Source: Strigamia acuminata (lineage: Eukaryota). From it: a stretch of DNA of 64,000 bases. The notes beneath the pieces are model-generated. The model searched no databases. It was not told where the DNA came from and saw nothing but the letters and a program-made list of their open reading frames with translations. The translations under genes and the position numbers were made by a program. The first letter of the stretch is position 1. Each line of letters opens with the position of its first letter. Of the stretch, positions 22,891 through 46,885 are shown one piece after another. The stretch covers positions 11,842,001 to 11,906,000 of the forward strand of contig OX442314.1 in assembly GCA_949358305.1 (NCBI GenBank), written 5' to 3'.

Positions 22891-22992
22891 CTTTTTCTAT
22901 ATTCGAGCGTTTTTAATTAGTCAAAATAATGTGTAAAAATCAAAGATTAAGAGAATAAAACTCCTCATCCCGTACATCGTTCAAAACATCGA

Positions 22993-25718: not shown

Positions 25719-25750
<32 letters not shown>

Positions 25751-27462
25751 ATGTATATAAAGATATATATATGTATATAAAGTTAAAATAAAAAATTTAC
25801 TATTACTGATAAAATAATTGTCCTCCAGAACATTCTTTGCACCGCTTGGGAACGCCAAACGCCATAGCATCCGCCAAACAATCGAGCATCTAAATTATAA
25901 ATTAAATTTAATAATTTGTTTTATATAATTAATTAATTAATTATTAATTACTCGACTGTTTCCCTTTTGAACTGCTCGTTTATTATGTTTCAACAGCTCT
26001 TGAAGATCTTTCTTTTTCAATTGGTTTTCAAGTTTATCTCGAAAATCAAAAATGATTTTATTTTGCTCCTAAATTAAATATACATATAAAAAAAATTAGT
26101 AGGAATTATCATAATTTATGTAGAATATTCGAGATATCTCACTTTAAGTTGCGTTTCTTCTGCATTGTCCTCTTCTTTGGCTTTTTTACTCTTGGGGCCG
26201 TCTTTGTTAGACTCGGCTACCCGTTTCCTATTGACAAAATGTGAAATTTTAAAACACGAATAAAAAATTATTACCAAAATTTATTAATTACAAGGCGCTT
26301 TTCATCATTGGCAACTTCTTTTTCAAACTGGCTTGATCTCCCGGTTTGAGAGATGAAAAACCAGCAAGTCTAGATTCAGTAGTGTAAAAAATTAATGGAA
26401 AAAATTGTCAAAATCAATTAAATAAACAAATAAATACACGTACACATCAGCAGATCCAAAGAATTCTAAATCTTCACGATTCGAAACGAAGCAGTCCTCG
26501 TGGTACCACAAATCCGCAGGACCAAATCTAGCTGCTTCTCCTTCAAAAGCCTTTTTAGATATTCGTACCAAATCCTATGGTTGGAAAAAAAATATTTTTT
26601 ATTAAAAAAAATTCATTTTTAACTTCAAACGCATTAATTGTACGCAATCTCAGTACAGAATTTACAAAATAGAAAAATTGTAAATATAAAATCAAAGAGT
26701 TTTGCAATTATTTTACCAGAAATTAATTATCACAGATGTTAGAAGAAAAAACATTGTGAAACTCAACTTCCTGGAGAAAAAATAAATTATTTTTTCACAA
26801 AATTTTATTTTTACCTTCGGTATTTTTCTGTTACAACCTCTGCAAAAACTTCGACTAGACTTCGCATATTCGGTAGCAAAATCGCTAAGTCCTTTCTGTG
26901 TGTCGTCTAAACAAAATTTAAACTAACATTTGTTAAAATAAATAAATAAAATTTATTTTTCGATTTTTCTAATTACCAACGGCTTTTTCAATTTTTTCCT
27001 GATCTTCCCATCGCAGTTGATCGACGTGAGCGATATCGCCAACGGTCTTTGGTCGACTGTTTGCAAAAAAACAGTCGAAATGATACCAATTTTGTTTCTA
27101 TGAATTTAAAAAGTGGAATAAAATTAGCACAAAAATCGGATTAAGCATTTTCTAACATTTGCGTACTTTTCCATCAAAGCGCCCACACTTCATTTCATAA
27201 AAAAATAGAATTAGAAAAATACATTCTTAGTCATAAATCTCATCAATTTTAATTACTAACTCACTTGAATCATAATAGCAAGTCTTAACGATGCTAAGGA
27301 TAAAAACAGGCATAAATTCATTAATTCGGCGTCCAACATTTTTGTAGACCATAGGTGGGGACCACTTTTAAACTTACCTTTTTCAATAGCTGCATTACAT
27401 CCTTTACAAGATGCTCTGCTACTTTTCGCATATTCTGCCCGGTATGGAAGGTCGTCAGACAT
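22993..27462 (-). CDS. PARP1: PARP1 paralog A (derived copy lacking BRCT), multi-exon
   Basis: Zn1 ([16 protein letters not shown]), Zn2, Zn3, WGR (SWGRVGT), helical domain ([13 protein letters not shown]) and catalytic H-Y-E (WHGSR, GVYFAD, YNEYIVY) present. No stop or frameshift seen. BRCT exons absent. Confidence 0.9.
24451..24610. mobile_element. Truncated MITE in a PARP1-A intron
   Basis: CAGGGGCGGATCTAGC...GCTAGAT partial TIRs; absent from PARP1-B; flanked by a 15-bp duplication AAGTTTCCATACTTG. Confidence 0.7.
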
Positions 27463-27600
27463 GATTTAATAAATAATAAATAGGCCCAGAAATACAGCAC
27501 ACTTTACTCGACGGCCCCACTTCAGATTTAAGGCGGGAAAGAAGTGAATGAAAGCGCATGCGCGACAGAATTGAAAACTGAAAAGCTGAATCCCGCAAAC
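27463..27600 (-). promoter_or_regulatory. PARP1-A proximal promoter candidate (paralogous to 41272-41400)
   Basis: E2F-like GGCGGGAAA (27532-27540) and NRF1-type GCGCATGCGC (27554-27563; also at 41359-41368). Confidence 0.45.
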
Positions 27601-27756
27601 TCGAAAACCTGATCAACCAAGTGATAAACCCACTTGCACAGAAAAAAATAAACAAGAAATTTTATTTTAAAAAACAAGTAAATATCAGTAATGCATGGAA
27701 GCATTACATATTAGACTTCTAAACCCCTTCTATACTTTTCTGTATAGAAACATATC

Positions 27757-30700
27757 TGTTGAGTATTTAATAAATGGTAATCACACATGTTGTGCACAAT
27801 GTTCACTATCACTTTATTGCTGTGGTCAGCCTGAAGGTTAACACTTAAGTGAGTGATGGCTCATCACTAACATGACACGTGGTTTCTACATTCCTCAGTG
27901 ATTGCCACTAGAGGGCGATACATAAAACCTTACTTCAATACATAACAATATTCCCCCCTTATAATGAATAAAAATGTCACAATATATAAGTTTCAATGTT
28001 TCATAAATTCAGTCTATCTGGTCCTTTTAATAACTCCCTCGGGCGCAAACCCTCGCGCCTCGGTGCACCAACATTTGGGTTGTTTTGGATGTTATCATTT
28101 ACTCGGTGTTCCGTCACATCCCCAACCGGTTCCGGCACTTGATCCTCTTCGATCTCGACAATCTCCACATCCGATGTCCCCTGCTCCAAATCTATATCGT
28201 GATCCTCAATGTCGGTCCGGCCATCCCCACAAGTCCGCGTTGCTCCGTCGCTGGATATCTCGCGATCCAGACGCATCTGATCGACGTGAACCGTTCTGGA
28301 AACCGCACCGACGTCTACAATATACGTCCTTGAACTCTGCACAGAACTAACGATTCCGCGCACCCATTCTGGGCCGCGTGTGTGATGTCTTTTTATCCAT
28401 ACCGCCTGGCCGACCTCAAAGGTACGGGCACAACGTCCGGTCTGCGCATTATGGATCTTGTCCAACCGTTCGTGGACGTGACGTCTCATATTCGGCCTCA
28501 CCAACGAAAACCGTGTTCGCATGTTCCTACAAATAAACAATTCCGCAGGAGTCTTACCCGTTATTGCATGCGGAGTGTTTCGGTATCGCAATAAGAATCT
28601 CGTAATTTTGTGACTCGTAGTCGTATTGTCCTTCTCATCGGTCATCATACGCTCAAGCGACTCCTTAAACGTTCGCACAGCCCTCTCGGCAGCACCGTTA
28701 GAGGCGGGATGGTATGCCGGCACCAACGTCTGCTTAATTCCATTAAGCGCCAAAAACGTCGCAAATTCTACAGAAGAAAACTGAGGACCATTGTCCGACA
28801 CCAACTCGACCGGCACTCCAAAATCCGCGAACTTCCACCGTAACACCTCTATAGTCCGCTCAGATGTAGTTGTGGTCATCGGAATAACGTCAATCCACTT
28901 CGAAAAGCTATCATAAATAATCAAATAATGTATTTTCCGCAATTCGGCAAAGTCAATATGTATGCGCTCATATGGGCCAGATGGCCACGACCATGATCTG
29001 AAGGGCGCCTCCGGAGGATCAGCTTGGCACTGCTGGCATGCATGACATTTCCTCGCAACGCTCTCTATCTCCGCGTCCAAACCCGGCCACCACACGTACG
29101 CGCGCGCAATCGACTTCATTTTCACCATCCCCGAATGCGTATCGTGCAATAAATCCAAAATGTGCGGACGATATTTAGTCGGAATCACCACACGCATTCC
29201 CCATACAATACATCCGTCATCGATAGATAATTCCTCTCGCCGACGTGAAAACGGCATAATGTCCGGATCCTTCACATCACTCGGCCAACCATCCCCAAGA
29301 TAACGCAAAACCGATCCCAACACCCTATCGTTCCTCGTAGCGGCACCAATATTCTTCGCCACGATCGGCATCTCATCGATGAACGACAACTTAAATATGT
29401 GCGATTCCACACCAACGACGCCATCCAGTATCGGCATGCGGGATAAAACGTCCGCATTCACATTTTCACACCCGCGCTTGTATTCGATTTTATACCTAAA
29501 TGTAGACAATAATAATGCCCATCGGCGAATACGCTCAGCAGCCAACGTCGGGATTCCCCGCTTGTCACCAAATATTGCCACCAAAGGAAGATGGTCGGTT
29601 ACCAAAGTAAATTCTCTCCCGACGAGGTACTGATAAAACTTTTGCACGCCGCAGACAATTGCCAAGGCCTCTCTTTCGCCTTGTGGATAGCCCCGCTGGG
29701 CCGGCGTCAAAGTCTGGGATGAATAACCAATAGGGCGCTCCTCGCCATTTGCCATGATATGCGACAAAATGGCACCAACCCCGACCGGTGATGCGTCGCA
29801 CGTCAAACGAAGCGGTTTGCGAACGTCGTAATGCACTAAAACCGCCTCAGATGTTAAAGCGCTCTTGCATTGCTGAAATGTTCGCTCACATTCCTCGGTC
29901 CATTTCCATTCCACTTTATCCTGCAAAAGACTGTATAAAGGGGTTAATTTAGTTGACAAATCCTTTAAAAATTTACAATAATAGTTCAAAAGTCCCAAGA
30001 AAGAACGCAGTTCAGACACATTGTTCGGTGATGGCACTTTGTTTATCGCATCGACTTTATCAGTCGTAGGATGAATTCCTTCCTTATCTATAATATGTCC
30101 CAAATATTTAATTTTCTTCTGCAAAAACTTGCATTTCTTTCGGTTCAGACAAACATTATATTTTCTAAATCGCTCAAATAACGTTCTCAAAACCGCCAAA
30201 TGTTCACTTCTTGACGGCGCAGTAGTCATGGTATCGTCCTGAAATGCCACAACCCGCTTAACACCTTGAATAATTTGATCGATTGCCCGCTGGAAGATAG
30301 CCGATGCCCCAGCAAATCCGTATACCAAACGTTTGGGGCGCATCAAACCCATATGCGTGTTTAAAGTCAAAATTTCCTGTGCCTGTTTATCAAGCTCGAT
30401 CTGCTCATAAGCGTCCGAGCAATCAACGGAAGAAAATTCCTCCCCTCCGCATAATGTCGCAAAAATGTCCTGTTGGGTAGGCAAAGGATATTGATTAATG
30501 TCCAAGCACGGGTTTACCGTGATCTTAAAATCGCCGCAACATCGCACCGATCCATTTGGTTTTACGACGTTTACCAATGGTGTGGCCCACTCGGAATGCT
30601 CCACACGCTCCCAAATCCCTGCATCTAAATGTCGTTGAATCTGGGCCTCCACTGCCTGTTTTAACGCATATGGCACTGGCCGATGCTTGCAAAATACAGG

Positions 30701-32350
30701 CTTTGCGTCTTTACGTAACTTGATGGTCGCCTTAAAATCCTTTATTGGATCCTTTTTTGGCTCAAATAAACTGGAATAATCTCTTAATAAGTTCTCAACA
30801 GTATCCGGCTGATCAGATTTAATCTCGGTCACCGCAAAAATACTTTTCCAGTCCAAACTCACTTTTTCAATCCAATTTCGACCGAATAATCCCGGGCGAT
30901 CCCCTTTTACCACCACCAACGGCAAAACATATGTCCTTTCCTTATATTTGATTGTGACATCGGTCTGTCCCTCGATCTCCACAATGCCACCGCTATATGA
31001 AAGTAACGTTATCCTGCATGGATTTAATGTCATTAATGGAAAATTCGCTTTAAACCACTTTTCGCCCACAACAGCTACATCCGCCGCGGTATCCAATTCC
31101 ATCTCCATCCGTACACCGGCAATTTCAACAGGAACCATATATTTCTTACAATTTCCGACCTTACCGATCGAGTATACTGGATACAATTCGAACGTTGGCT
31201 GTTCATCATCGCTTTCCGGTCCCCGGGCCTCGATCTTCTTCGCGAATTTTTGTTCGGGTCGAAACGTCTGCCTTTTCTGGCTTACACCTTTGGTTGTCCT
31301 CGATTTACATACTGGGGAAATGTGTCCAATTTTCCCACATGAATGACACGTCGCACCGACGTATTTGCACCTGTCCGCGGAATGTTCGTATCCACAACGA
31401 TAGCACGCCTCCCTGTCTCTATTTTTATCAAATCTTTGCCTTACCGGATGTCTCTCGTCCAATTTACTCACGGTAACGACTGGTGGCACTTTTATTTGCG
31501 TTGAATCTCGATCCACCATCTCCATGGCGGCCGCCGTGTCAACTGCATCAGTCAATTTTAAATCCTTTTTTGACAGTAAACGTTTCTGGATCGTCTCATT
31601 CGCCAAACCGCATACGAATTTATCACGCAATGCGTCGTTCAAAAATGATCCATAGTCACATGTCGACGCCAATCGTCTCAGCTCGACGACGTACTCTGCA
31701 ATCGATTCAACAGTATTTTGATCTCTTTTTAAAAACCTGAACCGCTCCGCGATGATTATTGGAGCTGGTTTGTAATGGTCGGACAACTTCTTAACAATGT
31801 CATCCCACGTCCAATCTTTTGGCTCTGTCGGTTGCATGAGGTTTCTCAGCAACTTATATGCGGTTCGACCCATTACCGCCATTAATGTGGATGACTGTTT
31901 ATCCGCCTTTATCCCGTTAGCCAAGAAAAAATGTTGGAGACGCTCCAAATATAAGCAGAATTCTTCTTTCGTTTCATCGAACTCGCCAATTTCACCAATA
32001 ATCGACATTTCTACTCACGTGAATCACCAACGTCCTTGCGAAGGTCGCGACAAACACAAATGGCGCACTCACGCAAAGTTGTTCACTCAATTTATTGTGT
32101 ACACGAGAGAGCACAAAAGCTCATACACCACACAAAATTTATCCTATTCTCGTCGCCATTGTTGAGTATTTAATAAATGGTAATCACACATGTTGTGCAC
32201 AATGTTCACTATCACTTTATTGCTGTGGTCAGCCTGAAGGTTAACACTTAAGTGAGTGATGGCTCATCACTAACATGACACGTGGTTTCTACATTCCTCA
32301 GTGATTGCCACTAGAGGGCGATACATAAAACCTTACTTCAATACATAACA
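27757..32350 (-). mobile_element. Full-length Ty3/gypsy LTR retrotransposon (Mag-like)
   Basis: Two identical 191-bp TG..CA LTRs (27757-27947, 32160-32350); 5-bp TSD ATATC; PBS TGGCGACGAG (tRNA-Ser type); polypurine tract next to the 3' LTR. Confidence 0.97.
28001..32008 (-). CDS. Gag-Pol polyprotein (1335 aa)
   Basis: Two CCHC knuckles, protease LDTAA, RT (FQDD), RNase H (CDAS, EREAL), integrase HHCC plus D-D-E; uninterrupted ORF. Confidence 0.96.
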   Translation of the reverse strand: MSIIGEIGEFDETKEEFCLYLERLQHFFLANGIKADKQSSTLMAVMGRTAYKLLRNLMQPTEPKDWTWDDIVKKLSDHYKPAPIIIAERFRFLKRDQNTVESIAEYVVELRRLASTCDYGSFLNDALRDKFVCGLANETIQKRLLSKKDLKLTDAVDTAAAMEMVDRDSTQIKVPPVVTVSKLDERHPVRQRFDKNRDREACYRCGYEHSADRCKYVGATCHSCGKIGHISPVCKSRTTKGVSQKRQTFRPEQKFAKKIEARGPESDDEQPTFELYPVYSIGKVGNCKKYMVPVEIAGVRMEMELDTAADVAVVGEKWFKANFPLMTLNPCRITLLSYSGGIVEIEGQTDVTIKYKERTYVLPLVVVKGDRPGLFGRNWIEKVSLDWKSIFAVTEIKSDQPDTVENLLRDYSSLFEPKKDPIKDFKATIKLRKDAKPVFCKHRPVPYALKQAVEAQIQRHLDAGIWERVEHSEWATPLVNVVKPNGSVRCCGDFKITVNPCLDINQYPLPTQQDIFATLCGGEEFSSVDCSDAYEQIELDKQAQEILTLNTHMGLMRPKRLVYGFAGASAIFQRAIDQIIQGVKRVVAFQDDTMTTAPSRSEHLAVLRTLFERFRKYNVCLNRKKCKFLQKKIKYLGHIIDKEGIHPTTDKVDAINKVPSPNNVSELRSFLGLLNYYCKFLKDLSTKLTPLYSLLQDKVEWKWTEECERTFQQCKSALTSEAVLVHYDVRKPLRLTCDASPVGVGAILSHIMANGEERPIGYSSQTLTPAQRGYPQGEREALAIVCGVQKFYQYLVGREFTLVTDHLPLVAIFGDKRGIPTLAAERIRRWALLLSTFRYKIEYKRGCENVNADVLSRMPILDGVVGVESHIFKLSFIDEMPIVAKNIGAATRNDRVLGSVLRYLGDGWPSDVKDPDIMPFSRRREELSIDDGCIVWGMRVVIPTKYRPHILDLLHDTHSGMVKMKSIARAYVWWPGLDAEIESVARKCHACQQCQADPPEAPFRSWSWPSGPYERIHIDFAELRKIHYLIIYDSFSKWIDVIPMTTTTSERTIEVLRWKFADFGVPVELVSDNGPQFSSVEFATFLALNGIKQTLVPAYHPASNGAAERAVRTFKESLERMMTDEKDNTTTSHKITRFLLRYRNTPHAITGKTPAELFICRNMRTRFSLVRPNMRRHVHERLDKIHNAQTGRCARTFEVGQAVWIKRHHTRGPEWVRGIVSSVQSSRTYIVDVGAVSRTVHVDQMRLDREISSDGATRTCGDGRTDIEDHDIDLEQGTSDVEIVEIEEDQVPEPVGDVTEHRVNDNIQNNPNVGAPRREGLRPRELLKGPDRLNL

Positions 32351-33228
32351 ATATCTGTCTCTAAATTAAACACCAAAATAAAAGAAAATGTTGAGTCGAT
32401 TCTTTTTATTCGTTTTATTCAATTTAGACATTTAAAATAGATAATAATTCAGATTCATTTAAATGAATTTTTTATGAAATTTATTTCTTTATTATTTAAT
32501 TTATTTATTTAATTACAAAACAGGAAGTAGAAATATTACATTTCCGGTTTGACAGGAAGTGCGGAAAGACGGACAGACGGACATGACCGTTTTATTATTA
32601 TTATTATTATTAGACTTTCTAAACATAGAACATAGGAGTCTAAAAAAACGGAAAAAAAAAAACAGAAACTTAAAATAATTTTAATTTAGGTTGGACACAC
32701 CACAATCTTACGGTAAAATATGTATTTATTTTCCTCGGTACAGTCCGCCAGAGGAGTACAGTGGCGGCAAAATTACGTTCTTCATATTTGTAAATTAGGG
32801 TTATTTATTTCCATTTCATACAAATAGTTCTATCTTGCAGCAGTATTTTTAGGAGCTAGGAAATTCCTTCTGACTAATAAGTTTGGAATAAGTGACAGTT
32901 GTCAGTTTCGCAGTGGATATTTGATTCAGTTGAGTTTCTATATTGCCGTATTCATTTTTAAATTGTATGAAATTTACATATCACAATTTTTCCCATACAT
33001 ATCACGAGTCAATAAGTGCCCAATTCCCATCACATTAATAAATCCAGTTAAGGTCAGGTTCGCGGGGGGGGGGGGAAGGGTCGAGGGGGGGCGCTAGCCC
33101 CACTTGTTACGAACAAAAAAAAAAATACTCGTCATTATCATTAACAGCAAGAACAATGAAAATTCGGATGATCGGTAGTGACGATTCGCCCGTAAAGTGT
33201 AGTTCTACCGTGATTTCTTCACTCAGAA

Positions 33229-34215
33229 ATGGAAAAACTTTCAGGAACATTCGCTCGCTTTCAGGAAAATCTAAAAGCCGCGAACTCGTGTCCCAGCTTG
33301 ATGAAAATATCATTATTAACTCTCGCAATTTCATTTTGGCGAAAAGATGCGGTTAGATTGAAAATAGGGAATTATTTAGGAAGAAATGTCGTGGGAACGA
33401 CAGGAAATAAAAAATAATAATCAAAGGGTTAAAGGTATAAATAAACCACTGTACTCAGACAGGGGTTGGGTAAAGGAGTGTTGGAACAAGGACACTCATT
33501 TGAGCAGCAGCAAATGCCTAAGGGCATAGACAACAAAAATCATTTATCGGAAAGGCAATTGGAATGGACATTTGATGAGCACTACTTGAACTTGGATTTT
33601 TGTGACATGCAGATATTAGAGTGTTTACTGTGGTCAAACAGATGTTGGAATGAGTGTTTTTATTCAAGTTTGATCGATGTGCTTGATTTTATTGATACAC
33701 TGCATCGTTCCGTGGAGTATTTTGTAAGGATGTTAGTTGAGATTTTCCGGAGTGGTCTTTCTAGTTACCCAAAAAAAAAGTTTTTCGAAAAATTGTGGTA
33801 CAGTCTTTCCAGCGATAAAAAACTGTCTATATTCAAGTATAAGTTTACCATAATGGATCTGTTTAACTATCAGGATCTTGATTTTCTTAAGATGCTGATG
33901 AAAAGTGCGGATGAAGAGATGAAATTGGATTTTTTGGTGTCCAAAAGATCTACCTGCGTGTTAATGGTTGTGAATGATGGAGGAGCCGTGTTGGATGAGT
34001 TTCTGCGTGAAATTTTCCAAAGTGATGGCATCTTGCGACGTTTTAAGCAACATGTTTGTGATTTTGGGATTGAATACCTCAGAAAATTAACTGAGGATGA
34101 ATACGAATCTGATTCAGACGATGGCAATCCACTAACTGAAGAAAGGATTTTTAAAACTGATTTATCGTCTATTGAATTGCTAGAAGGTAAACTTATGGCT
34201 TTTTGCAATCATTAA
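33229..34215 (+). pseudogene. Disrupted copy of the BC-box-like gene family (partner of PARP1-A)
   Basis: Near-identical to 41777-43255, but ~640 bp of coding sequence is replaced by a 149-bp insert that brings a stop. Confidence 0.85.
33387..33535. mobile_element. Possible solo LTR (149 bp)
   Basis: TGTCGT...ACAACA inverted termini; contains TATAAATAAA; absent from the paralog; no clear TSD. Confidence 0.5.
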
Positions 34216-34707
34216 GCATTGGAAGAAAACTATTCAATGGTGAGTTGTGTTGGAAGCTTCAACAACTGAAATAATAATTAATATTTTTTCTTCTTCAAGC
34301 ATTTTGTATAAGTTTATTGATGTTAAGAAAATTTGATTTTTATATAGTTGTTGCTGAAAATTGCGCATTTACTATTAACATTGATATTAAAATAAAACAA
34401 ATACTAAATTTAATGAAAAAGCAAGGGCAAAAATTAAACAAACACACGTGACACATCACAACAATGCCACTTTGTCAGTGAAATGATAAAAGGTAAATCC
34501 AGTCAGACTCCGCCATATCAGTTTTTCCTTCAGAATCATCATCATCGAATCTCTGAATTCACGGACAAGCTAGACCGAGAATTACACACAAAATCGGAAA
34601 AATTGAGAAATTATAAACTTAAAATAATTTTACTTTAGGTTGGATAAGTCGCCAACTTTCTGTAAAATAAATATTTAGTTTCTTCGGATGCTGGCTATTG
34701 TGGGTCC

Positions 34708-35993
34708 GGGGTTGGACCTATTCCGCCCCGCCCAAAACCGCCACTTGGTCCATTTCCGCCCCATCCCGATTCCGCGGCGAATTTTTCTATTTAAATTAAA
34801 TAAAAATTATTTAAATAAAAATAAAATATAATAAAATTTCGCAGAGCCCAATTCCGCCTAAACACATTGCGGAGTGGAATTGGGACTGGGCGGAATTGGG
34901 ACTGGGGCGGAATTGGGACGAGCGGATTTGGATTGCATCAAGGCAGAGCCCAATTCCGCCTAAATACATTGCGGGGCGGAATTGGTTTACAACTACCCGA
35001 ACTGGATCGCTCGGACGGAGTGTCGAATAAAACAGTGTACGATCACAAAATCACCGAAAATTCAACTTACTCGCCGATCGTCGAAGAGAACGTTGCGGAT
35101 CGTTGTTTGGAGTTCGCGTCCAAGATTTATTTGGGCTCGGCGGCGACGGCGTTTAATTGTCGCGGGACGAGCGTGCACACTACGAAAACGCCGGATAAGT
35201 GGCGCGAGCGAGAGTCGATGTTGCTGGCCGACCAGCTCGGTGACTTGGACGGCGTTGCACCGTGTTCGTCGTCGCCCAAAGCCGTTTACAATGGGATACA
35301 GCCGTACAAGTTCTATCAGGATGCTCCACGACTGCCAAGTGATCCGACAAGTCGACTGCAAATTAATCGCGTGCAAACTGAGTGGCGGTATCATCGTTTT
35401 GTTCGACCAACACGCGGTGCACGAACGAATCCGACTAGAACAACTCCAAGCCGAGATGGACTTTCTTTTTAAGCGAGGACGATTTGGTCAACGTGAAACG
35501 CCGTTCGCTCAATCCGCCGATGAAATTCTCCAGTTCGGGTCGTTGTAAACGTTCTGTGGCTCTCTCTTCGGTATTTTCTGTCTGAGCGATGCAGTTCGGG
35601 TCGGTTTCAACATTTTCCGTCGCGAATTATTTCAACAATGCGGAGAAAGTGCTCTCGAACATTTCGCGACGGCTGCAATTCCAGTGTTAATTCGTTAATT
35701 TGTTTATTCCTGTATGTATTGTTTATTACATAACAGAAATAAAACAAATTTAAGGCATCAAATATTTTGGAGTGGAATTGGAACGCGGCGGAATTGGGAC
35801 CGGGGCTGAATTGGGACAGGAGCGGAATTGGGACTGGGGTGGAATTGGAATTGGGCGGAATTGGGAAGGACGGAATTCTGAGGGGCGGAATTGGGACGAG
35901 TGGATTGCATCAGGACAGAATTGCAACCTTTTTTACCAAGAGGGGCGGTTTTGGAACCGGTGGAATTGGTTCTGGCGGAAATGAACCCCGTCC
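34708..35993. mobile_element. Mutator-like non-autonomous TIR element carrying captured gene fragment(s)
   Basis: TSD GTGGGTCC (34700-34707, 35994-36001); degenerate GG-start TIRs sharing TTCCGCC and CCAAAACCGCC-CTTGGT; arrays of GGCGGAATTGG; empty site at ~43701. Confidence 0.75.
34984..35455 (+). pseudogene. MLH3: MLH3 fragment (MutL C-terminal endonuclease motif), frameshifted
   Basis: [10 protein letters not shown] /frameshift/ [35 protein letters not shown] matches the MLH3 [27 protein letters not shown] segment. Confidence 0.85.
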
Positions 35994-36106
35994 GTGGGTC
36001 CTTAGGTATGGCATGGATTATAAGCTCTGGAGTTCCTAGACCGACAGGTTTGCCGTAATAATTTTTCAATCGTATTAAATAATCTATTTGATTTCTTTAC
36101 ACAGAA

Positions 36107-36350
36107 ATGTACAAAATCCACATAATATATGCCCGTCTTCAAGAAAAGCTGCAGAACGCGAAATCGTGCAACAACTTGGATTTTTTCGCGCTAGATGACG
36201 CCCCGGAAAATCAACTGGAATTTGCACTCAGAAAATGCGAATTGAAAAGTATTTCATGATGGATCTGTTGAACTATGAGGATCTTAATTCTTAAGTTGAT
36301 GAATAGTATGGATGAAGAGATGAAATACAAATTGACTTTGGAGAAAACAT
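36107..36350 (+). pseudogene. Degenerate fragment of the BC-box-like family
   Basis: MYKIHIIYARLQEKLQNAKSC start homologous to 45274; large deletions; ends at the duplication junction. Confidence 0.7.
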
Positions 36351-36454
36351 AACTTTTTCTATACTCGAGTGTTTTTAATTAGTCAAAATAATGTGTAAAA
36401 ATCAAAGATTAACAGAATTAAACTCCTCTTCCCGTAAATCGTTCAAAACATCGA

Positions 36455-39400
36455 TTAATAATCCCATTTGAAATTCATTTTCAAAAGGTATTTCACGTTG
36501 ATCTGCGAAACATCGTACACAATGTACTCATTATACAGCAAAGACGTATTTGGTACTGTGCTTTTAACGCCTTGACCCAAAGGAATCTCCACTCCATCCG
36601 CATCAACGTGTGTGACAGCCGGATCCGGTTCTGTGGTTCCAATACCCTTAGTACTTTGTTTTCCAGCCGGCAATTTAGTAATAAAATCTGCGTTTTTCAA
36701 CTCGTGCCTAAAAAATAACACGAAAATCAATAAATTATTTCATTATATGAATAATAATTAAAACTTACATATTCCCCAATGCAACTTCGCACAACAACAT
36801 CAGTCCGATCGGATTGGATTTGTTGGTGCAACAGTAGTTGGCACTTTTCGACACCATGTCGGCGAAATAAACACCTTTGCCGAACATGTAACCGGTCTAA
36901 ATAAAGATAAAAGTTAAAAATACGTTCCGGGTTTGTATATAAAACTGTTAAATCTACCGATGGCGCTTCCGGTGGAGCGATGCGTAATCCTTGCGACAGT
37001 ATCCCCGCGTAATTAGTGACGCGAGATCCATGCCATAACAGTTTGCGATTGTGGAGTTTCTTAAACGGCTTGTAGCGTTTGTTTTCGCCATGACGGACCA
37101 CTTTGAACACGTCGATAATCTCCAATCCGTATTGGTTGTGCGTTTTAGCGTGAGTGTTCTTCACGTATTTCTTAATCAAATCAAACTCTTTGGATTTACG
37201 ATCAAGAACCTGAAATAAAATTTCACATTAAGCAAAACAAAGAAATATTTTCATTTATTTTATTTTTTACTTCAATGTCGGTTTTGAGTTTCTCGTAATG
37301 AGCATCGATGGGGTCCTTCGAGCCGTCGTCCTCGCCCTGCAGCAAGCTATACGCGACTTCGATTTCCAACAAGTTGTCCAACATTTCGATTTTCTGTTTA
37401 ATAATTTCTTCGTTATCGAGAGAAGTTGGTTTTTTAATGCCAAAATCGTGCGGAATAAGAGTGTAAAATCTATTAGATGCGTCCAAGAACTTCGAAGCGG
37501 GCGCTTTAGTTTGGATCAGCTATTAAAAAATAAAATAAAAGTTAAATTATATTTCAACGTTTTAATTAATTAAAAAATCACCTGCAGCAGTTCGGTTAAA
37601 ATAGAATAAGCCTTTTCGATCTGTTTTCGCGACAATTTACCCAACGGCATCTTTTTCAAATCGATCTAGAAGACAAAATTTAAAAATTATATACCTATAA
37701 AATTTACTAATTTACTTCAATCCATACCTCGAATTCCACTAAAGCCTTTTGCATACTTTCTACGTCGAATATCATGCGAATTAAATTCTGAATCTGTTCC
37801 TCGAGTTTTGATTTGCTGTTTTTAAAATCCTCTTTCAGACGTTTAATTTTCTCGTCATCCTAGACCGAAAAATTGTTATTAAATGCTCATTAATTGTCCA
37901 ACAAGTTTCCATACTTGGCCATAATCGATATCCAAAGGATAAAACCTATTCGGCTGCTTGACAAAATGTTTGCGATTTTTCCATTCATTTCCCGTTTTTT
38001 CTAAATACAACGCTTGAAACGAATCGATGGCATCCTCTCTGTCAGTCATCTGCTCGACTTTATTACCGCCAATCGTGGTTCCCACACGACCCCACGACCT
38101 GAACAACCAATACCTATTTAAAAAGAGACAAAAATTAATGAAAATCGCTCGAAAAACAGAGAAAAAAAATATTTATACCTATTTTTCTTGTCTCCTTCCA
38201 AAATCTGAAGCTTATAAAACGAATTGGTTCCACGAGATATATCCACCATTCCAAGAATAGCGTTGTAGATTTCGCTATGTACTTCCAAAACATGAGCCAC
38301 GTCTTGCAAATCTACAGAAAATAAAAATAAAACCATTTTAAGTCATCAATAAATTAATCGAAGAATTAAATTAAATAATCACCTGACGCTGGATCCACAG
38401 CAGCGCCCCCTTTAACCGTCATTTTTAACGTCGAAGGCATACTCTTCGTGTACACAGATTCCTTCTCTATAAAATTGAAATTAAAAGAATTAATTTAAAA
38501 AAAATATAATTTAACAATAATAAAATGAATTAAATTTGTCAATTTTTTGTCCGCTCCGTAACTGTCCAAAACCTGGTTCTTAATCAGTTTTGGTCATCAG
38601 AAAGCAAATTTTGATTTTGGGAGATTTCGTGCCAGTTTTGCCAACTTTTGATAAACCGGGTATCTGCTCCCTTTCCACTATTCAAATCTCATTCCATTTA
38701 TACCTTTAGCGCCGCTCTTTTTCGACTTCACTCCTCCTGGTTCCTGCACGCGTAAATGGGGCTGTAAAAATTAAATATTATAAATATTTTTCACAAAAAT
38801 TTAATTGACAACTCACATCTGATCCCCAATCACAAATGCTTTTCTCGACGATAAGTAGAATCGCTCCACCATTTTTCACAGAATCAACATAATCTTCAGA
38901 AACGACGTGAACGTCCGCATCTTTCGCTTCTTCGATCTTTTTGCTCATTTTATTCACCTCCGCTGTCAAAATTATCATGATTAACAACAGAAAAACACTT
39001 TTTTACTCAAAAAAATTGATAACTACCTTCATTACTGATCACAGCTGCCACAGTTTTATCGATTTTCGTTACAACTTTTCCTCCGAGAGACTCAATCGTC
39101 TTGACTAATGCTGGTTTTCCTTTGGATAGCTTACCAACAGTCACAAAATTCATGTTAGATAATGGCAAATCGGCGCTAAAAGAAAAGAAATAAAATTATT
39201 TCCCCGTTTATTTACATTATTGTTTACTAATTACGAGGGTGGTTTGCTGCCGGATGACGATGAGGCGACGGCTGCAGATGGAACGTGTTTAGATGAAAAA
39301 ATTCGGTCCCTTTTAACATATTTATATTTTTTTCTAAATTTAAATAATAAAAATTATAATAAATTGCTTCTAAAGTGTCAATTTTGTTTCGTTTACAAGA

Positions 39401-41271
39401 AATCAAATCTTTCCTTCATCTCATCAGGTACTGTGAACGGTTTTCTCTCCGGTTTCTTTGTAACAAAAGTGCATTTGGTCCATTCGGTCATATTACCATG
39501 ACACCTATATCCCTCGGTCCTTAAATTAAAAAAAAATTAATACATTAAAAAAAAATATATGTATAAAATTAAAATAAAAAATTTACTATTACTGATAAAT
39601 TAATTGTCCTCCAGAACATTCTGTGCACGGCTTGGGAACTCCAAACGCCATAGCATCCGCCAAACAATCGAGCATCTAAATTATAAATTAAATTTAATAA
39701 TTTGTGTTATATAATTAATTAATTATTAATTACTCGACTGTCTCCCGATTGAACTACTCGTTTATTATGTTCCAACAGCTCTTGAAGATCTTTCTTTTTC
39801 AATTGGTTTTCAAGTTTATCTCGAAAATCAAAAATGATTTTATTTTGCTTCTAAAATAAATATATATAAAAAATTACTAGTAATTATCATAATTTATGTA
39901 GTACATTCGAGATATCTCACTTTAAGCTGAGTTTCTTCTGCGTTGTCTTCTTCTTTGGCTTTTTTACTCTTGGGGCCGTCTTTGTTAGACTCGGCTACCC
40001 GTTTCCTAGCGACAAAATTTAAAATTTTAAAACCCGAATCAAAAATTATTACCAAAATGTTTAATTACAAGGCGCTTTTCATCATTGGCAACTTCTTTTT
40101 CAAACTGGCTTGATCTTCCGGTTTGAGAGACGAAAAACCAGCAAGTCTAGATTCAGTGGTGTAAAAAATTAATGGAAAAAATTGTCAAAATCAATTAAAT
40201 TAACAAATAAATACACGTACACATCAGCAGATCCAAAGAATTCTAAATCTTCACGATTCGAAACGAAGCAGTCCTCGTGGTACCACAAATCCGCAGGACC
40301 AAATCTAGCTGCTTCTCCTTCAAAATCTTTTTTAGAGATTCGTACCAAGTTCTATGGTTGGAAAAAAATTATTTTTTATTAAAAAAAATTCATTATTAAC
40401 TTCAAACGCATTAAATGTACGCAATCTCAGTACAGAATTTACAAAATAGAAAAATTGTAAATATAAAATCAAAGAGTTTTGCAATTATTTTACCAGAAAT
40501 TAATTATCACAGATGTTAGAAGAAAAAACATTGTGAAACTCAACGTTCTGGAGAAAAAGGCAATTATTTTTTCATAAAATTTTATTTTTACCTTTGTGAT
40601 TTTTTCGTTACAACCTCTGCAAGTACTTCGACTAGATTTCGCATATTCAGTAGCAAAATCGCTCAGCTCTTTCTTCGTTGACAATTGGTTCTTAATAAAC
40701 GACGCACCAGTGTCGTCTGAACAAAATTTAAACAAAAATTAGTTAAAATAAATAAATAAAATTTATTTTTTGATTTTTCAAATTACCAACGGCTTTTTTT
40801 ATTTTTTCCTGATCTTCCCATCGCAGTTGATCGAAGTGAGCGATATCGCCAACGGTCTTTGGTCGACTTTTTGCAAAAAAGCAGTTGAAATGAAACCAAT
40901 TTGGTTGCTATGAATTTAAAAAGTGGAATAAAATTAACACAAAAATCGGATTAAGCATTTTCTAACATTTGCGTACTTTTCCGTCAAAGCGTGAAGACTT
41001 CATTTCATAAAAAAATAGAATTAGAGAAATACATTCTTAGTCATAAATCTCATCAATTTTAATTACTAACTCACTTGGATCATAACAGCAAGTCTTAACG
41101 ATGCTAAGGATAAAAACAGGCATAAATTCATTAATTCGGCGTCCAACATTTTTATAGATCATAGGTGGGACCACCTTTAAACTTACCTTTTTCAATAGCT
41201 GCTTTACATGCTTTACAAGATGCTCTGCCACTTTTCGCATATTCTGCCCGGAATGGAAGGTCGTCAGACAT
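36455..41271 (-). CDS. PARP1: PARP1 paralog B (canonical), multi-exon
   Basis: Zn1-Zn2-Zn3-BRCT ([32 protein letters not shown])-WGR-HD-ART with [28 protein letters not shown]. Confidence 0.95.
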
Positions 41272-41776
41272 GATTTAATATTAAATAGGCCCAGAAATAC
41301 AGCACACTTTACTCGACGGGCCGACTTAAGATTTAAGGCGGCAAAGAAGTGAATGAAAGCGCATGCGCGACGTAATTGAAAACTGAAAACCTGAATCCCG
41401 ATAACTCGAAAACCTGATGAATCAAGTGATAAACCCTCTTGTACAGAAAAAAAAAACATGAAATGTTTTGTTTTAAAAAAGAAAAAGAAAAAGTGCCTCG
41501 AAAAAGCAGAAAATTAAAATAATTTTAATTTAGGTCGGACACACCACCATCTTACGGTAAGAAATGTATTTATTTTCTTCGGTACAGACCGCCAGAGGAG
41601 TACAGTGGCGCCAAAATTACGTTCTTAGGAGCTAGGAAATTCCTTCTGAGCAATAAGTTTGGAATAAGCGACAGTTGTCAGTTTCGCAGAGGATATTTGA
41701 TTCAGTTAAGTTTCTATATTGCCGTATTCATTTTTAAATTCTATGAAATTTACATATTTGATTTCTTCACTCAGAA

Positions 41777-43255
41777 ATGGAAAAACTTCCAGAAATATTC
41801 GCTCGCCTTCAAGAAAATCTAAAAGCCGCGAACTCGTGCCCCAGCTTGATGAAAATATCACTATTAACTCTCGCAATTTCATTTTGGCGAAAAGATGCGG
41901 TTAGATTGAAAATAGGGAATTATTTAGGAAGAAAGAAAACTCTGCAATCCAGGGAATGGCATCGAATTGAAGACGAAGCGATGAAAAATGAAAATTTGTG
42001 CTTACCGCCACACCTTAAGGACGAACTAAAATGTGCCGTTGCAATGATTGGTATCCAGATACACGAATGGATCAAATATCTCGAAGATTTCACTTTCACT
42101 CATGCAGTCTATCCACTAGATTTTGTTAGTGACATTGCTTGGACGGTTCATGGAGCAATTGACAAAAAAGCAACGTTCATGTTGCTTTACAACGGCGAAA
42201 ATAGCAAAGCCTTGAGGACCAATGGGAGTCTCTACGTCATGGCAGTCCATTTTGGTTTAGTAAACTACGAGAAGATTTTATGGAAGAAGGTGCCACGGGA
42301 CTTAAAAACAACCGACTATACTCAAGGCTATGACGAAGTAAATTTTGACCTTACAGCCTCGATGAACTTTGAATTAACATTAAAAATTAGAAAATTATTT
42401 CGCCACCAACACTGCAATATAAACGAAATTGTCCAGTTGGCGATGGATTACGATCTTGATTTAATATTACAGTACATGTGGGATTCCACGGATGATGCGG
42501 CTGAGAGGAATCGATTGGTAGATCTATGTTGCCAGTGTTTGGAAGCCAAAGGCTCGGATACAATGTATTTTCTAATAAATCATTTATCGGAAAAGCAATT
42601 GGTATGGACATTTGATGAGTACTACTGGAACTTGGATTTTTGTGGCATGCAGATATTAGAGTGTTTGCTGAGGTCAAACAGATGTTGGAATGAGTTTTTC
42701 TATTCAAGTTTGATCGATGTGCTTGATTTTATTGATACACCGCATCGTTCCGTGGAGTATTTTGTAATGATGTTAGACGAGATTAGCCAGAGTGGTCTGT
42801 CTAGTTACCCAAAAAAAAAACTTTTTGAAAAATTGTGGTACAGTCTTTCCAGCGATAAAAAACTGTCTATATTCAAGTATAAGTATACCATAAAGAATCT
42901 GTTTAACTATCAGGATCTTGATTTTCTTAAGATGCTGATGAAAAGTGCGGATGAAGAGATGAAATTGGATTTTTTGGTGTCCAAAAGATCTACCTGCGTG
43001 TTAATGGTTGTGAATGATGGAGGAGCCGTGTTGGATGAGTTTTTGCATGAAATTTTCCCAAGTGATGGCACTTTGCGACGTTTCAAGAAAAATGTTTGTG
43101 ATTTTGGGATTGAATACGTCAGAAAATTAACTGAGGATGAATACGAAGATGATTCAGACGATGGCAGGCCACTAACTGAAGAAAGGATTTTTAAAACTGA
43201 TTTATCGTCTATTGAATTGCTAGAAGGTAAACTTATGGCTTTTTGCAATCATTAA
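41777..43255 (+). CDS. Uncharacterised 492-aa protein, single coding exon, N-terminal BC-box/SOCS-box-like motif
   Basis: Long ORF with an ATG just after a splice acceptor; paralogs at 33229 and 45274; motifs CPSLMKISLLTLA, LPPHLKDEL, IAWTVHGAIDKKAT. Confidence 0.8.
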   Translation: MEKLPEIFARLQENLKAANSCPSLMKISLLTLAISFWRKDAVRLKIGNYLGRKKTLQSREWHRIEDEAMKNENLCLPPHLKDELKCAVAMIGIQIHEWIKYLEDFTFTHAVYPLDFVSDIAWTVHGAIDKKATFMLLYNGENSKALRTNGSLYVMAVHFGLVNYEKILWKKVPRDLKTTDYTQGYDEVNFDLTASMNFELTLKIRKLFRHQHCNINEIVQLAMDYDLDLILQYMWDSTDDAAERNRLVDLCCQCLEAKGSDTMYFLINHLSEKQLVWTFDEYYWNLDFCGMQILECLLRSNRCWNEFFYSSLIDVLDFIDTPHRSVEYFVMMLDEISQSGLSSYPKKKLFEKLWYSLSSDKKLSIFKYKYTIKNLFNYQDLDFLKMLMKSADEEMKLDFLVSKRSTCVLMVVNDGGAVLDEFLHEIFPSDGTLRRFKKNVCDFGIEYVRKLTEDEYEDDSDDGRPLTEERIFKTDLSSIELLEGKLMAFCNH

Positions 43256-43817
43256 GCATTGGAAGAAAATTATTCAATGTGTGTTGTGTTGGAAGCTTCA
43301 ACTACTGAAATAATAATTAATATTTTTTCTTCTTCAAGTATTTTGTGTAAGTTTATTGATGTTAAGAAAACTTGATTTTTATATAGTTGTTACTGAAAAT
43401 TGCGCATTTACTATTAACATTGATATTAAAATAAAACAAATACTAAATTTAATGAAAAAGCAAGGGCAAAAATTAAACAAATACACGCGGCACATCACAA
43501 CAATGCCACTTTGTCAGTGAAATGATAAAATGTAAATCCAGTCAGATTCCGTCATATCGGTTTTTCCTTCACAATCATTATCACCGAATCTCTGAATTCA
43601 CGGTCAAGCTAACCGAGAATTACACATAAAATCAGAAAAATTACATGGAAAAATCAGAAACTTAAAATAATTTTACTTTAGATTGGACAAGTCGCCAACT
43701 GTGGGTCCTTAGGTATGGCATGGATTATAAGCTCTCGAGTTCCTAAACTGACAGGTTTGCCGTAATCATTTTTCAATCATATCGTATTAAATAATCTATT
43801 TGATTTCTTTACACAGA

Positions 43818-44360
43818 AAGGGACAAAATGCACATAATATATGCTCGTCTTCAAGAAAAGCTGCAGAACGCGAAATCGTTCCCTAACTTGGAAAAATTAT
43901 CATTACCGTATTAACAATCGCAATTTTTCGCGCTAGATGACGCCCCGGAAAATCAACTCAGACAAGTATTTCATAATGGATCTGTTGAACTATTAGGATC
44001 TTAATTCTTATGTTGATAAATAGTATGGATGAAGAGAAGAAATACAAATTGATTTTGGAGAAAACATTCACGTGGTTGTTAATAATGGAGGATCCTTGAT
44101 GGAAGACTTAACGATACCCGTGTCGTAAGACTTCATCCGTTTGGAAAATTTCACTCAAAAACTGAGTTTTCGCGTGAAATTTTCCAAAATGATAAAGTCT
44201 TGCGACGTTTTTAGCGAGTGGTTTGTGATTTTGGGATTCAATATATCAGAAATTTAAATCTTCATAAATACGAATGCTCACTGAGGAAAGCTATTTTAAA
44301 ACTGATTTATCTTGTTATGAATCGCTGGAAAAATAAAACTTTTGCTTTTTCCAATCATTA
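43818..44360 (+). pseudogene. Degenerate fragment of the BC-box-like family
   Basis: IYARLQEKLQNAKSFPNL start plus C-terminal similarity (LRRF, FKTDLS); stops and deletions. Confidence 0.7.
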
Positions 44361-45273
44361 ACCAGCGTAAGAAAATTACTAAACGTATTGGAGAATACTA
44401 TTGTTTGTTTGCAATAATTAATACACAAGTGGACGGGCAGTTAAGTGTCATGTCTGAATCAGCTATCTGAGCACTGTCTGCTCCTCCTCTTCTCTTGTTC
44501 TGGGAACTCCCTGTTTTTTTGTACAGCCCACAAGGTTGTTATTGGTCAGTTTAAATCGCTGGCCCACCTCCTTTGTGATACGAGCACCACTCCATCCTTG
44601 GACTCGCCTCCCTTTTGTGGGTTCTCAGGTTCCAATTGGGGCTGCACCTTTTTGTGATTGATGGATTTAAGTTGTCCTTTCTACACCATAAACACCACCA
44701 CACAGCACACACGCTCGGATAAGTACACAATTATGCATTAGAATAAGATATTAAAATTATAAAAATATAAAGGTACTTATGTGTTTTCAATCAAAGTTGG
44801 AGCTTGGTTTGGAGTGAAATGAATGTGGACCTCATTTGCATAAGTTGAAAATCACATCCGTTAACACGGTTGGGGGTTCAGATCAATGGTCAAACAACAG
44901 CTGTGAAAATTAATAAAATGATGCATCATGAAAAAATAAATAAATAAAGCCTTGAAAAAAGCAGAAAAAGCATCAAAAAAAATTATTTTTGGTTGGATAC
45001 ATCGCCATCTTTAAGCTAAATGATTTATTTCATTTCTTCAGATTCTTCTCACCAGAGGAGTGGTGGAAAAGGCAAACATACGAACATCCGAGCTGTGAGC
45101 CGTCGAACGTTTTTCGTATTTGTAAATTACAGTTTTTCGATTATTTCTGTTTCATCCAAATAGTCGTATTTTATAGCAGAAAGTTTGCAATATCGATATT
45201 TAATGCAGGTATGTTTCGACATTATCGTAATAATATTTTAATTGTAATAAAAGCTATATTTCTTTACACAGAA

Positions 45274-46491
45274 ATGGACAAAATTGCAAAAATATACGCT
45301 CGCCTTCAAGAAAACCTGAAAAACGTGAAATCGTGCCCCAGCTTGAAAGAAATATCATTATTAGCCGTCGCAATTTCATTTTGGCGAAAAGATGCGGTTA
45401 AATTGCAAATAAGCAATTATTTTGACAAAAAGAAAAGTCTGAAATCACCGGAATGGCATCGAATTGAAGACGAAGCGATGACAGGAGCAAATCTGTACTT
45501 ACCACCAGGCCTGAATGACGAACTAAAGTATGCCGTTGCAATGATCGGTGTTCAGATACACGAATGGATCAAATATCTCGAAGGATTCACTTTTACTGAC
45601 AATGTCACTTCGTACGCTTTTGTTAATGACATTGCTTGGACGGTTCACGGATCAATTGACAAAAAAGCAACGTTTTTTTTGCTTTGCAACGACGAAAACA
45701 ACGAAGCCTTGAGGACCAATGGGAGTCTGTACATTCTCGCGAGTCATTTTTGTCTAGTAGATTACGTGAAGATTTTATGGAACAAGTTGCCATTGCTCTT
45801 TAAATCAATCAGCTGTGAGGACGAATTAGATTTGGACAAAGAAACCAGGCAGAAGTTTAAACTGGCGACAAAAATTTGGGAATTAATCAACGGCAAACAC
45901 TGCAATTTAAAGCAAATTGTCGAGCTGGCGATGTATTACAACTTTGATTTAGTTTTACAGTACTTATGGGATACTAAGGATGGTGCGGATGAGAGGAATC
46001 AATTGATAAATCTTTGTTGGGAGTATGTGAACTCCGAGCAATCGGATGTTACGTACTTTCTAATAAGTCATTTATCGGAAAAGCAACTGGAAGTGATATT
46101 CAGTCATGGCGGCATCTGGGGCTTGCGATTCTCCAGCGTGCTAGACAGTCTGCTAAATTCGAACAGGTTTTGGAGTGACTTTTTGTATTCTACTTTGATC
46201 GATCTGGTTGATTTTTCGGATGTACAATACGCAACGACTTTTTATATTCTGTCAAAACATAGTCATCGGAGTGGCCTTGTTGGTTTTCTAAAGAAAAAAC
46301 TTTTCGATAAATTGTGGAACGATTTTTCAAGCGAACTAAAACGGGTCTTGTTGGAAGAAGAGCGAACCTTGATGAATTTGGTCAAGTTTTCGAGACTGAT
46401 GCGCTCTGGCGACGCTTTAGGTTACCAGGCTGTGTTTTCGGAATTGCTTGAATCAGCCCAACGTTATGCTGATAAGAATGAGATTCAGTAA
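45274..46491 (+). CDS. Older paralog of the BC-box-like family (405 aa)
   Basis: MDKIAKIYARLQENLK..CPSLKEISLLAVAISFW..LPPGLNDEL..WTVHGSIDKKAT aligns with 41777; ATG follows the acceptor TTTACACAG. Confidence 0.78.
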   Translation: MDKIAKIYARLQENLKNVKSCPSLKEISLLAVAISFWRKDAVKLQISNYFDKKKSLKSPEWHRIEDEAMTGANLYLPPGLNDELKYAVAMIGVQIHEWIKYLEGFTFTDNVTSYAFVNDIAWTVHGSIDKKATFFLLCNDENNEALRTNGSLYILASHFCLVDYVKILWNKLPLLFKSISCEDELDLDKETRQKFKLATKIWELINGKHCNLKQIVELAMYYNFDLVLQYLWDTKDGADERNQLINLCWEYVNSEQSDVTYFLISHLSEKQLEVIFSHGGIWGLRFSSVLDSLLNSNRFWSDFLYSTLIDLVDFSDVQYATTFYILSKHSHRSGLVGFLKKKLFDKLWNDFSSELKRVLLEEERTLMNLVKFSRLMRSGDALGYQAVFSELLESAQRYADKNEIQ

Positions 46492-46885
46492 ATGCCAAGT
46501 GACTGCAGAAAGCATTTTTTTTAAAAACAATCATTAACCAGCGCAAGAAAATTATTAAATGTGTTTTAACGTTAAATATTGTAGAAATTTATTGAGGATA
46601 AAAAAATTGAATTTTTTTTATAAATTGTTGCAAAATATTGCCAAAAATTTGAATCTCTGATACGCCGATTCTGATCGCTGTATCCCTCGCGCATATATCA
46701 TCCGCCAGACATCTATAAGCGATCAACGCCCATTTCGCACTTATTTTCGTACCGCGCATTGCGAGTTTGGTATAAAAATGAGTGCGAAAGCGGCTTTGAT
46801 CGCTTAACGTGTCTGTCGATCGGTAGTGTCGCTGTGGAAAAAACATATATGCGCGCGCAGCGCATGGTACACTTTTCTTTTTCAG

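What the first reader, a model, noticed from the sequence alone, without database searches (positions are those of the whole stretch)
34708..35993. Pack-MULE-like element that captured the MLH3 endonuclease motif
A TSD-flanked TIR element, absent from the duplicate locus, contains ~700 bp of GC-rich, intron-free coding-like DNA between direct GGAATTGG-rich blocks. First comes an MLH3 piece with DQHA(X)2E(X)4E. Then an unrelated-looking segment ends ..RRLQFQC-stop (35690), followed by AATAAA (35738). Gene capture by TIR elements is well known in plants and less documented in animals. The lack of introns and the UTR-like end hint at an RNA template or a two-gene chimera (inference). It could produce small RNAs against a meiotic crossover gene.
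Basis: partly seen in the sequence, partly recalled or inferred. Interest (0 to 1): 0.7.

Follow-up and report, generated by a model that had tools for sequence, protein, structure and literature searches.

The report
Centipede transposon family carrying MLH3 fragments
A small jumping DNA element in a centipede carries a broken, partly flipped piece of the meiotic crossover gene MLH3 and exists in several rearranged copies; the piece was most likely copied from DNA rather than RNA, and this kind of gene capture is already known in animals.

Summary
The element is real: 34708-35993, exact 8-bp target duplication, and a precise empty site in 2 of 4 public runs. It is multi-copy, with cargo-less and rearranged relatives. 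The host is a Strigamia-like centipede.

(1) No second gene: the cargo is MLH3 codons ~641-836 in sense followed by upstream MLH3 codons (~603-647, probably more) inverted. 'RRLQFQC-stop' is the antisense reading of that piece, and the AATAAA is chance-level. (2) No sign of an RNA template: a contig at single-locus depth, most likely the parent gene, is colinear with 394 nt of the cargo without an intron and runs on in frame as MLH3.

The window copy has four frameshifts and a stop and lacks the other endonuclease motifs, so it is a dead fragment. Best reading: a non-autonomous foldback-type (Muta1-like) Pack-MULE that took a large exon by DNA template switching, then multiplied and rearranged. 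No transposase was seen. Small RNAs against MLH3 are untested; no RNA holder was listed. New member of a known kind; I found no myriapod case in print.

The parts
34700..34707 (+). left target site duplication (8 bp)
   Evidence: joint 34699->35994 with 8 letters fitting both sides in X2 and X3
34708..34770 (+). left end: 10-bp terminus, then TTCCGCC-type motifs in reverse orientation (degenerate TIR); first core motif 13 nt from the end, as at the right end
   Evidence: (I4); X1 contig bridges the left junction, 34462-34767 with 1 difference
34771..34869 (+). AT-rich spacer and a short block (34841-34883) with one reverse motif
   Evidence: (D4)
34870..34942 (+). left array, period 17, 3.5 units
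   Evidence: (D1-D3)
34943..34984 (+). 42-nt copy of 34841-34883; relatives have 9 nt of MLH3 here instead
   Evidence: D4, 93%; joint 34942->34985 in 3 of 4 runs (tables 5 and 5c)
34985..35522 (+). sense MLH3 cargo, codons ~641-836 (Strigamia maritima numbering): WW-like stretch and start of the MutL C-terminal domain; frameshifts near 35011, 35320, 35462
   Evidence: other contigs carry frame-restoring indels at these places
35405..35440 (+). DQHA(X)2E(X)4E motif
35529..35667 (-). inverted MLH3 cargo, codons ~603-647; overlaps the sense start by 22 nt; one stop and one frameshift
   Evidence: 12 of 16 residues identical at 606-621; score 61, 0 of 500 shuffles reach it, max 54; I11; junction bridged without differences in X1 and X2
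35668..35710 (-). probable further inverted MLH3 cargo after a deletion of about 31 nt in this copy; its + strand reads RRLQFQC-stop
   Evidence: sibling contig joins it in frame through 33 more letters (table 5c, read by hand); not significant by itself (51 of 500 shuffles)
35711..35768 (.). AT-rich internal block (19% GC) with the AATAAA; origin unassigned; also found beside other sequence
   Evidence: loose end before 35711 in one contig each of X1, X2, X3
35769..35920 (+). right array, period 17, 7.6 units; direct repeat of the left array
35921..35993 (+). right end (degenerate TIR); 35993 is also the end in 2 contigs with other flanks
   Evidence: (X3 loose end behind 35993)
35994..36001 (+). 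right target site duplication (8 bp)
43700..43708 (+). paralogous site with one copy of the target, no element and 42 flanking bases missing
   Evidence: joint 34657->35994 in 3 of 4 runs

Best explanation
This is a non-coding, multi-copy DNA element, likely a Mutator/foldback-type transposon moved by an enzyme encoded elsewhere, that carries a frameshifted fragment of one host gene, MLH3, partly in sense and partly inverted, likely copied from a large genomic exon by template switching during DNA repair. Shown: boundaries, TSD, filled and empty sites, cargo identity and orientation, relatives with deletions, inversions and no cargo. Inferred steps: (1) a roughly 310-bp cargo-less element (34708-34947 joined to 35921-35993) is the ancestral form; (2) synthesis stalled in its array, switched to the MLH3 locus and returned upstream of the array, which would explain direct arrays on both sides of the cargo; (3) the loaded element was amplified by a transposase binding the 17-bp units; (4) copies were further deleted, inverted and mutated (this copy is about 12% from the likely parent); (5) this copy inserted recently or excises precisely, since filled and empty alleles both exist. 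It most likely has no function for the host.
For: TSD and precise empty site. Summed contig depth over the cargo is a median 8-11 times (range 3-27) that of the single duplicate locus in 3 of 3 deep runs (a rough figure), with up to 12 contigs listed at single cargo bases. Cargo-less joints 34938->35918/35929 and a loose end joining 34947 to the right end. All assigned cargo is MLH3. Contig of 513-525 nt at single-locus depth in X1, X2, X3 is colinear over 35129-35522 with 12 gap letters, net -8, and continues DLTMREEEIR, 7 of 10 identical to residues 837-846 of P0001 (read by hand). 8-bp TSD plus 10-bp terminus plus short tandem units match Aedes Muta1, about 20% of whose derivatives carry host gene pieces (PMC5225508). 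7 of 11 A/T-for-G/C transitions sit in CpG-decay context against 22% expected, p 0.004 (taken from 20 in-element rows among the 40 of 215 shown), as expected for methylated copies.
Against: No transposase with these ends was seen (no genome held). TIRs are weak and the main arrays are direct, not inverted as in Muta1. Only one complete TSD pair was seen. The parent locus was not seen whole: other contigs also run past 35522 (2 in X1, 3 in X2), so the 514-nt contig could be a longer-cargo copy. An 866-nt X1 contig leaves the cargo at 34985 and was not listed as rejoining the inverted piece (tables cut), so contiguity of the parent upstream of codon 641 is not shown. The empty-site contig could be a further paralogue, although its depth is half that of the duplicate locus. 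X2 and X3 are one study, and X1 may be the window's own source.
Confidence: 0.8

Rival explanations
1. Same element and cargo, but mobilised by a non-MULE transposase (hAT, P/Galileo or Merlin), all of which make TSDs of about 8 bp (recalled).
For: TSD is 8 bp, not 9-10; hAT and Tc/mariner account for 323 of 370 animal Pack-TIRs (PMC8277862); an intact-looking hAT with an 8-bp TSD lies in the same window.
Against: That hAT has quite different, perfect 12-bp ends; the 10-bp terminus plus 17-bp arrays fit the Aedes MULEs, 14 of 14 families of which have 8-9-bp TSDs.
Confidence: 0.15
2. The cargo was copied from MLH3 mRNA or cDNA, and the intronless contig is only another, less decayed copy.
For: No intron in the cargo; vertebrate MLH3 has introns around this motif (recalled); the parent was not seen whole and 162 of 181 loose ends were not shown.
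Against: The single-locus-depth contig is the most divergent, its indel sum restores the frame and it continues as conserved MLH3; no poly(A); this genome has very large exons, e.g. a 700-codon open stretch 82% identical to a Strigamia BEACH-domain protein.
Confidence: 0.07
3. Two-gene chimera: the segment ending RRLQFQC-stop with AATAAA is the 3' end of another gene.
For: A stop followed by AATAAA exists; 35711-35768 is unassigned; 35668-35710 is not significant against P0001 by itself; the + strand reading has a weak likeness to MLH3's own later LPFQC region (score 31, at the shuffle mean).
Against: 35529-35667 is minus-strand MLH3; a sibling contig joins 35668 onward to it in frame; no credible protein hit; AATAAA is expected by chance.
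Confidence: 0.03
4. The family is transcribed and yields piRNA/siRNA that lowers MLH3 expression in the germ line, so it acts as a recombination modifier.
For: Cargo in both orientations; a 22-bp inverted overlap pairs in the predicted fold; one X1 contig holds a 91-105-nt inverted duplication of MLH3 sequence with a 58-nt gap (record 5); TEs are methylated in S. maritima (PMC7343188); similarity of Pack-MULEs to their parents is linked to siRNA in rice (PMC5861414 passage).
Against: About 12% divergence from the likely parent limits targeting; whole-cargo folding is unremarkable (z -1.6, 2 of 20 shuffles as good); no promoter or transcript evidence; the many different deletions look like neutral decay.
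Confidence: 0.08

Closest known systems
Muta1 non-autonomous derivatives of Aedes aegypti (type 2 foldback MULE; PMC5225508, passages and section 7 read)
   Same: 8-bp TSD, 10-bp terminus, short tandem units with a period near 16-17, variable interiors with host gene fragments, precise empty sites
   Different: ends here are degenerate, the main arrays are direct repeats around the cargo, no autonomous partner seen, cargo much older (about 88% against 97.5% in the Muta1NA3 example) and rearranged
Multicopy Pack-TIRs and Ssk-FB4 (PMC8277862; abstract, sections 7 and 9, passages read)
   Same: animal TIR element with GC-rich host cargo, several copies, polymorphic insertion, repetitive arms; template switching followed by transposition fits
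   Different: Ssk-FB4 holds a nearly whole, expressed gene; this is a dead internal fragment in two orientations. Only 4 multicopy cases were found in their reference genomes; 'Strigamia' does not occur in the main text (supplements not read)
Pack-MULEs of rice (PMC5861414, passages) and of the myxozoan Sphaerospora molnari (10.64898/2026.02.11.705288, abstract only)
   Same: host gene fragments inside non-autonomous MULE ends
   Different: plant Pack-MULEs have long, near-perfect TIRs (recalled); no expression or small-RNA data here

Membership tests
Pack-MULE (foldback/Muta1-type) | 8-10-bp TSD | tested here: met
   exact 8 bp; precise empty site
Pack-MULE (foldback/Muta1-type) | long terminal inverted repeats | tested here: inconclusive
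   12 of 20 and 22 of 40 ungapped; same motif register from both ends; opposite motif orientation at the two ends
Pack-MULE (foldback/Muta1-type) | subterminal short tandem repeats | tested here: met
   period-17 arrays, though the two large arrays are in direct orientation
Pack-MULE (foldback/Muta1-type) | host gene fragment inside, no transposase | tested here: met
   MLH3 codons ~603-836
Pack-MULE (foldback/Muta1-type) | cognate MULE transposase with the same ends | not testable with these tools
   no genome held
multicopy Pack-TIR (Tan et al. 2021) | several cargo-bearing copies | tested here: met
   many distinct contigs and joints over the cargo in 3 of 3 deep runs
multicopy Pack-TIR (Tan et al. 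2021) | distinct TSDs at different loci | tested here: inconclusive
   2 X3 contigs with other flanks after 35993; their left ends and cargo not seen
multicopy Pack-TIR (Tan et al. 2021) | parental copy not linked to the element | tested here: inconclusive
   candidate parent contig is only 513-525 nt
hAT derivative | short perfect TIRs like those of the local hAT | tested here: not met
   ends differ from the hAT at 56089-58588; other hAT families not tested
retrocopy / RNA-templated capture | precise loss of parental introns | tested here: not met
   no intron in the candidate parent over 35129-35522; rest of cargo untested
retrocopy / RNA-templated capture | gene 3' end with poly(A) | tested here: not met
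   cargo stops mid-domain at codon ~836; no A-tail
functional MutL-gamma endonuclease | DQHA(X)2E(X)4E plus the later ACR-like and CxHGRP motifs (motif list recalled) | tested here: not met
   only the first motif is present; the others lie near residues 900-955 of P0001, outside the cargo

The most novel reading that the evidence does not exclude
An active transposon family has amplified sense, antisense and hairpin pieces of MLH3 and turns the host's piRNA/siRNA and methylation systems against its own crossover gene, lowering recombination in carriers; insertion polymorphism would make this testable.
Probability: 0.07. Interest if true: 0.8.

Novelty: new member of a known kind. Interest (0 to 1): 0.36.

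Why it matters
As shown, it adds a myriapod example of a multi-copy, probably still mobile gene-capturing DNA transposon, a class with few described animal cases (4 multicopy cases in 100 reference genomes plus Ssk-FB4, PMC8277862; more in Aedes and myxozoans). The family keeps cargo-less, loaded, deleted and inverted forms side by side, so it could be used to reconstruct capture steps. It would matter much more only if small RNAs from it were shown to act on MLH3.

Tried and rejected
No whole genome was held, so copies could not be counted and the parent was not assembled. No RNA holder listed; this says nothing on expression. Pfam on the + strand readings of the second segment: 0 families for 2 of 2 pieces. 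HMMER over 1.84 billion proteins with the + strand reading: 2 hits, both repeat ORFs, rejected. I considered that AMQFG...LQFQC was MLH3's own C-terminal GAIKFG...LPFQC region after a deletion; rejected because it scores at the shuffle mean (31 against 33.8) while the minus strand scores 61. The sense tail 35463-35528 is not significant alone (30 of 500 shuffles) and rests on position, the 4-nt indel and the in-frame loose end. A minus-strand splice acceptor near 35710 (which would prove DNA capture) was considered but is not convincing. S. maritima gene structure: 'mlh3' not found, but only a few of the 57 supplementary files of PMC4244043 were searched, so its exon structure may stand in files I did not see. 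Literature: 'MLH3 + transposon + captured + gene fragment' gave 1 unrelated paper; 'centipede + Pack-MULE' gave 1 unrelated paper; listings only. Earlier scan notes by sequence and place: none. X4 is one contig at depth 2.3 and is weak.

Full report
Host and setting. No genome is held. The best hit of the motif piece is Strigamia maritima MLH3 (P0001, 72% identity, 94% of the query; 18 hits among 91 candidates), and a 691-residue open stretch elsewhere in the window is 82% identical to a S. maritima BEACH-domain protein (1 hit among 7982 candidates scored). The host is therefore a Strigamia-like centipede, probably not S. maritima itself. The element sits between fragments of an unnamed tandem gene family inside a segmental duplication.

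The element is real. GTGGGTCC flanks 34708-35993 on both sides; its only other + strand occurrence in the window is the paralogous site at 43701. That paralogue also lacks 42 flanking bases that two further paralogues appear to retain, so it is an imperfect control. The better control comes from public contigs: a joint 34699->35994 with 8 letters fitting both sides in X2 and X3 (2 of 4 runs, one study), at half the depth of the duplicate locus (44 against 87; 148 against 305), and a 10-letter loose end in X4 that fits the same empty site. An X1 contig bridges the filled left junction. Filled and empty alleles thus probably coexist; a further paralogue is not excluded. In Muta1 about 90% of excisions from TSD-flanked donors are precise (PMC5225508 passage), so an empty allele means either recent insertion or excision.

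Anatomy of the arms. The ends are degenerate (12 of 20, 22 of 40), but the first TTCCGCC core lies 13 nt from each end, in opposite orientation. Period-17 arrays lie at 34876-34931 and 35774-35897 in direct orientation. Other contigs join the left array directly to the right end (34938->35918 and ->35929; loose end after 34947), which defines a cargo-less form, and two X3 contigs leave at 35993 into other flanks. Summed depth over the cargo is a median 11, 10 and 8 times the single-locus figure in X1, X2, X3 (range 3-27). The tool warns that this is no copy number, and contig overlaps inflate it; 'several to a few tens of copies' is all it supports. Relatives show at least six internal deletions and two inversions (15 of 20 joints shown).

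The cargo is one gene. tblastn with P0001 gives residues 639-817 over 34979-35461 in three frames (E 3e-35), a weak continuation from 821 at 35475, and residues 606-621 on the minus strand at 35656-35609. Against shuffles, the minus-strand reading of 35529-35710 scores 61 (0 of 500 reach it; mean 33.8, max 54), and 60 with the overlap left out. The 22-nt inverted repeat 34985-35006 / 35529-35550 is the overlap of the two pieces (VYN.PNW in both). Other contigs carry insertions of 4, 12 and 2 nt at 35011, 35072 and 35320, a 4-nt loss at 35462 and two substitutions at 35629-30 that remove the minus-strand stop (12 of 67 indel rows shown). The inversion junction is bridged without differences in X1 and X2, so it is not an assembly error. 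Beyond 35667, loose ends read on the minus strand as PVIGRCDVSS, colinear with PIIGRSEELC of P0001, and one contig adds 33 letters and rejoins at 35666 in frame (hand readings; 12 of 27 loose ends shown). RRLQFQC-stop (35667-35690) is then the antisense of ELTLELQPS. 35711-35768 stays unassigned; an AATAAA is present in 51 of 142 equally AT-rich windows.

Intron question. A contig of 514, 525 and 513 nt in X1, X2, X3, at depth 19.5, 119 and 321 (single-locus reference 17, 87, 305), aligns to 35129-35522 with 43-46 other letters and 12 gap letters, net -8, which fits a +2 and a -10 (or -4 and -6) and would restore the frame; it runs on for 128-140 letters. The first 30 read DLTMREEEIR against DLSMRSEDIR at 837-846 of P0001 (by hand). 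This is most likely the parent: no intron over 394 nt that include the motif. Against: per-record gaps are not listed, other contigs share the continuation, and the parent upstream of codon 690 was not traced.

Mechanism. Shown: structure, cargo, polymorphism, family. Inferred: capture by template switching in the array, then transposition (the FoSTeST model of PMC8277862, sections 7 and 9 read), later slips at short homologies (5 nt at 34943-47; 2 nt at 35666-67), and CpG decay (7 of 11, p 0.004, from a cut table) in line with TE methylation in S. maritima (PMC7343188 passages). The cargo cannot encode an endonuclease: four frameshifts, one stop, later motifs absent. A 75-codon ATG frame with the motif exists at 35321-35548; nothing suggests it is used.

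Small RNA. Untested. The fold pairs the overlap but is not unusual overall (z -1.6). One sibling contig has a longer inverted duplication whose arms differ by 8 substitutions and 12 gap letters, the best candidate for a hairpin RNA.

Known kinds. It works like the Aedes Muta1 derivatives and Ssk-FB4; membership of the MULE superfamily is likely but lacks the transposase test. Pack-type elements are described in mosquito, fly, frog, alligator and a myxozoan. Two searches found no centipede or MLH3 case; subscription papers and most supplements were not searched. Verdict: new member of a known kind, interest 0.36.

Noticed in passing
window 56089-58588: hAT-like element: perfect 12-bp TIRs, 8-bp TSD (56081-88 / 58589-96), 664-codon open frame with a BED zinc finger; looks recent.
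   Followed up: partly
window 27757-32354: LTR retrotransposon with identical 195-bp LTRs, an apparent 5-bp TSD and a 1337-codon gag-pol-like frame on the minus strand; family not tested.
   Followed up: partly
window 22887-27677 and 36349-41483: Segmental duplication at 90-95% identity that includes PARP-like exons (label recalled from the translation).
   Followed up: no
window 41762-43255, 44956-46491 and fragments at 33211-34215, 36054-36350, 43757-44400: Tandem family of roughly 500-codon single-frame genes without a Pfam match (2 of 2 tested), with several truncated copies.
   Followed up: partly
run X1 contig, record 5 (713 nt): Sibling with a 91-105-nt inverted duplication of MLH3 sequence, 58 nt apart; one arm is identical to window 35529-35619.
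   Followed up: no
P0001 residues 645-673; window 35000-35075: Centipede MLH3 has a WW-like stretch (Pfam E 0.0016, below the cut-off), which lies at the start of the sense cargo.
   Followed up: partly
window 35531-35553 and 35592-35614: Internal 23-nt near-repeat inside the inverted cargo (D17); whether it is in the parent is unknown.
   Followed up: no
window 11482-12151; 44122-44206; 46703-46818; 56268-56330; 58755-58866; 49910-52279: A 21-bp tandem array, four long palindromes and a cluster of short dispersed repeats.
   Followed up: no
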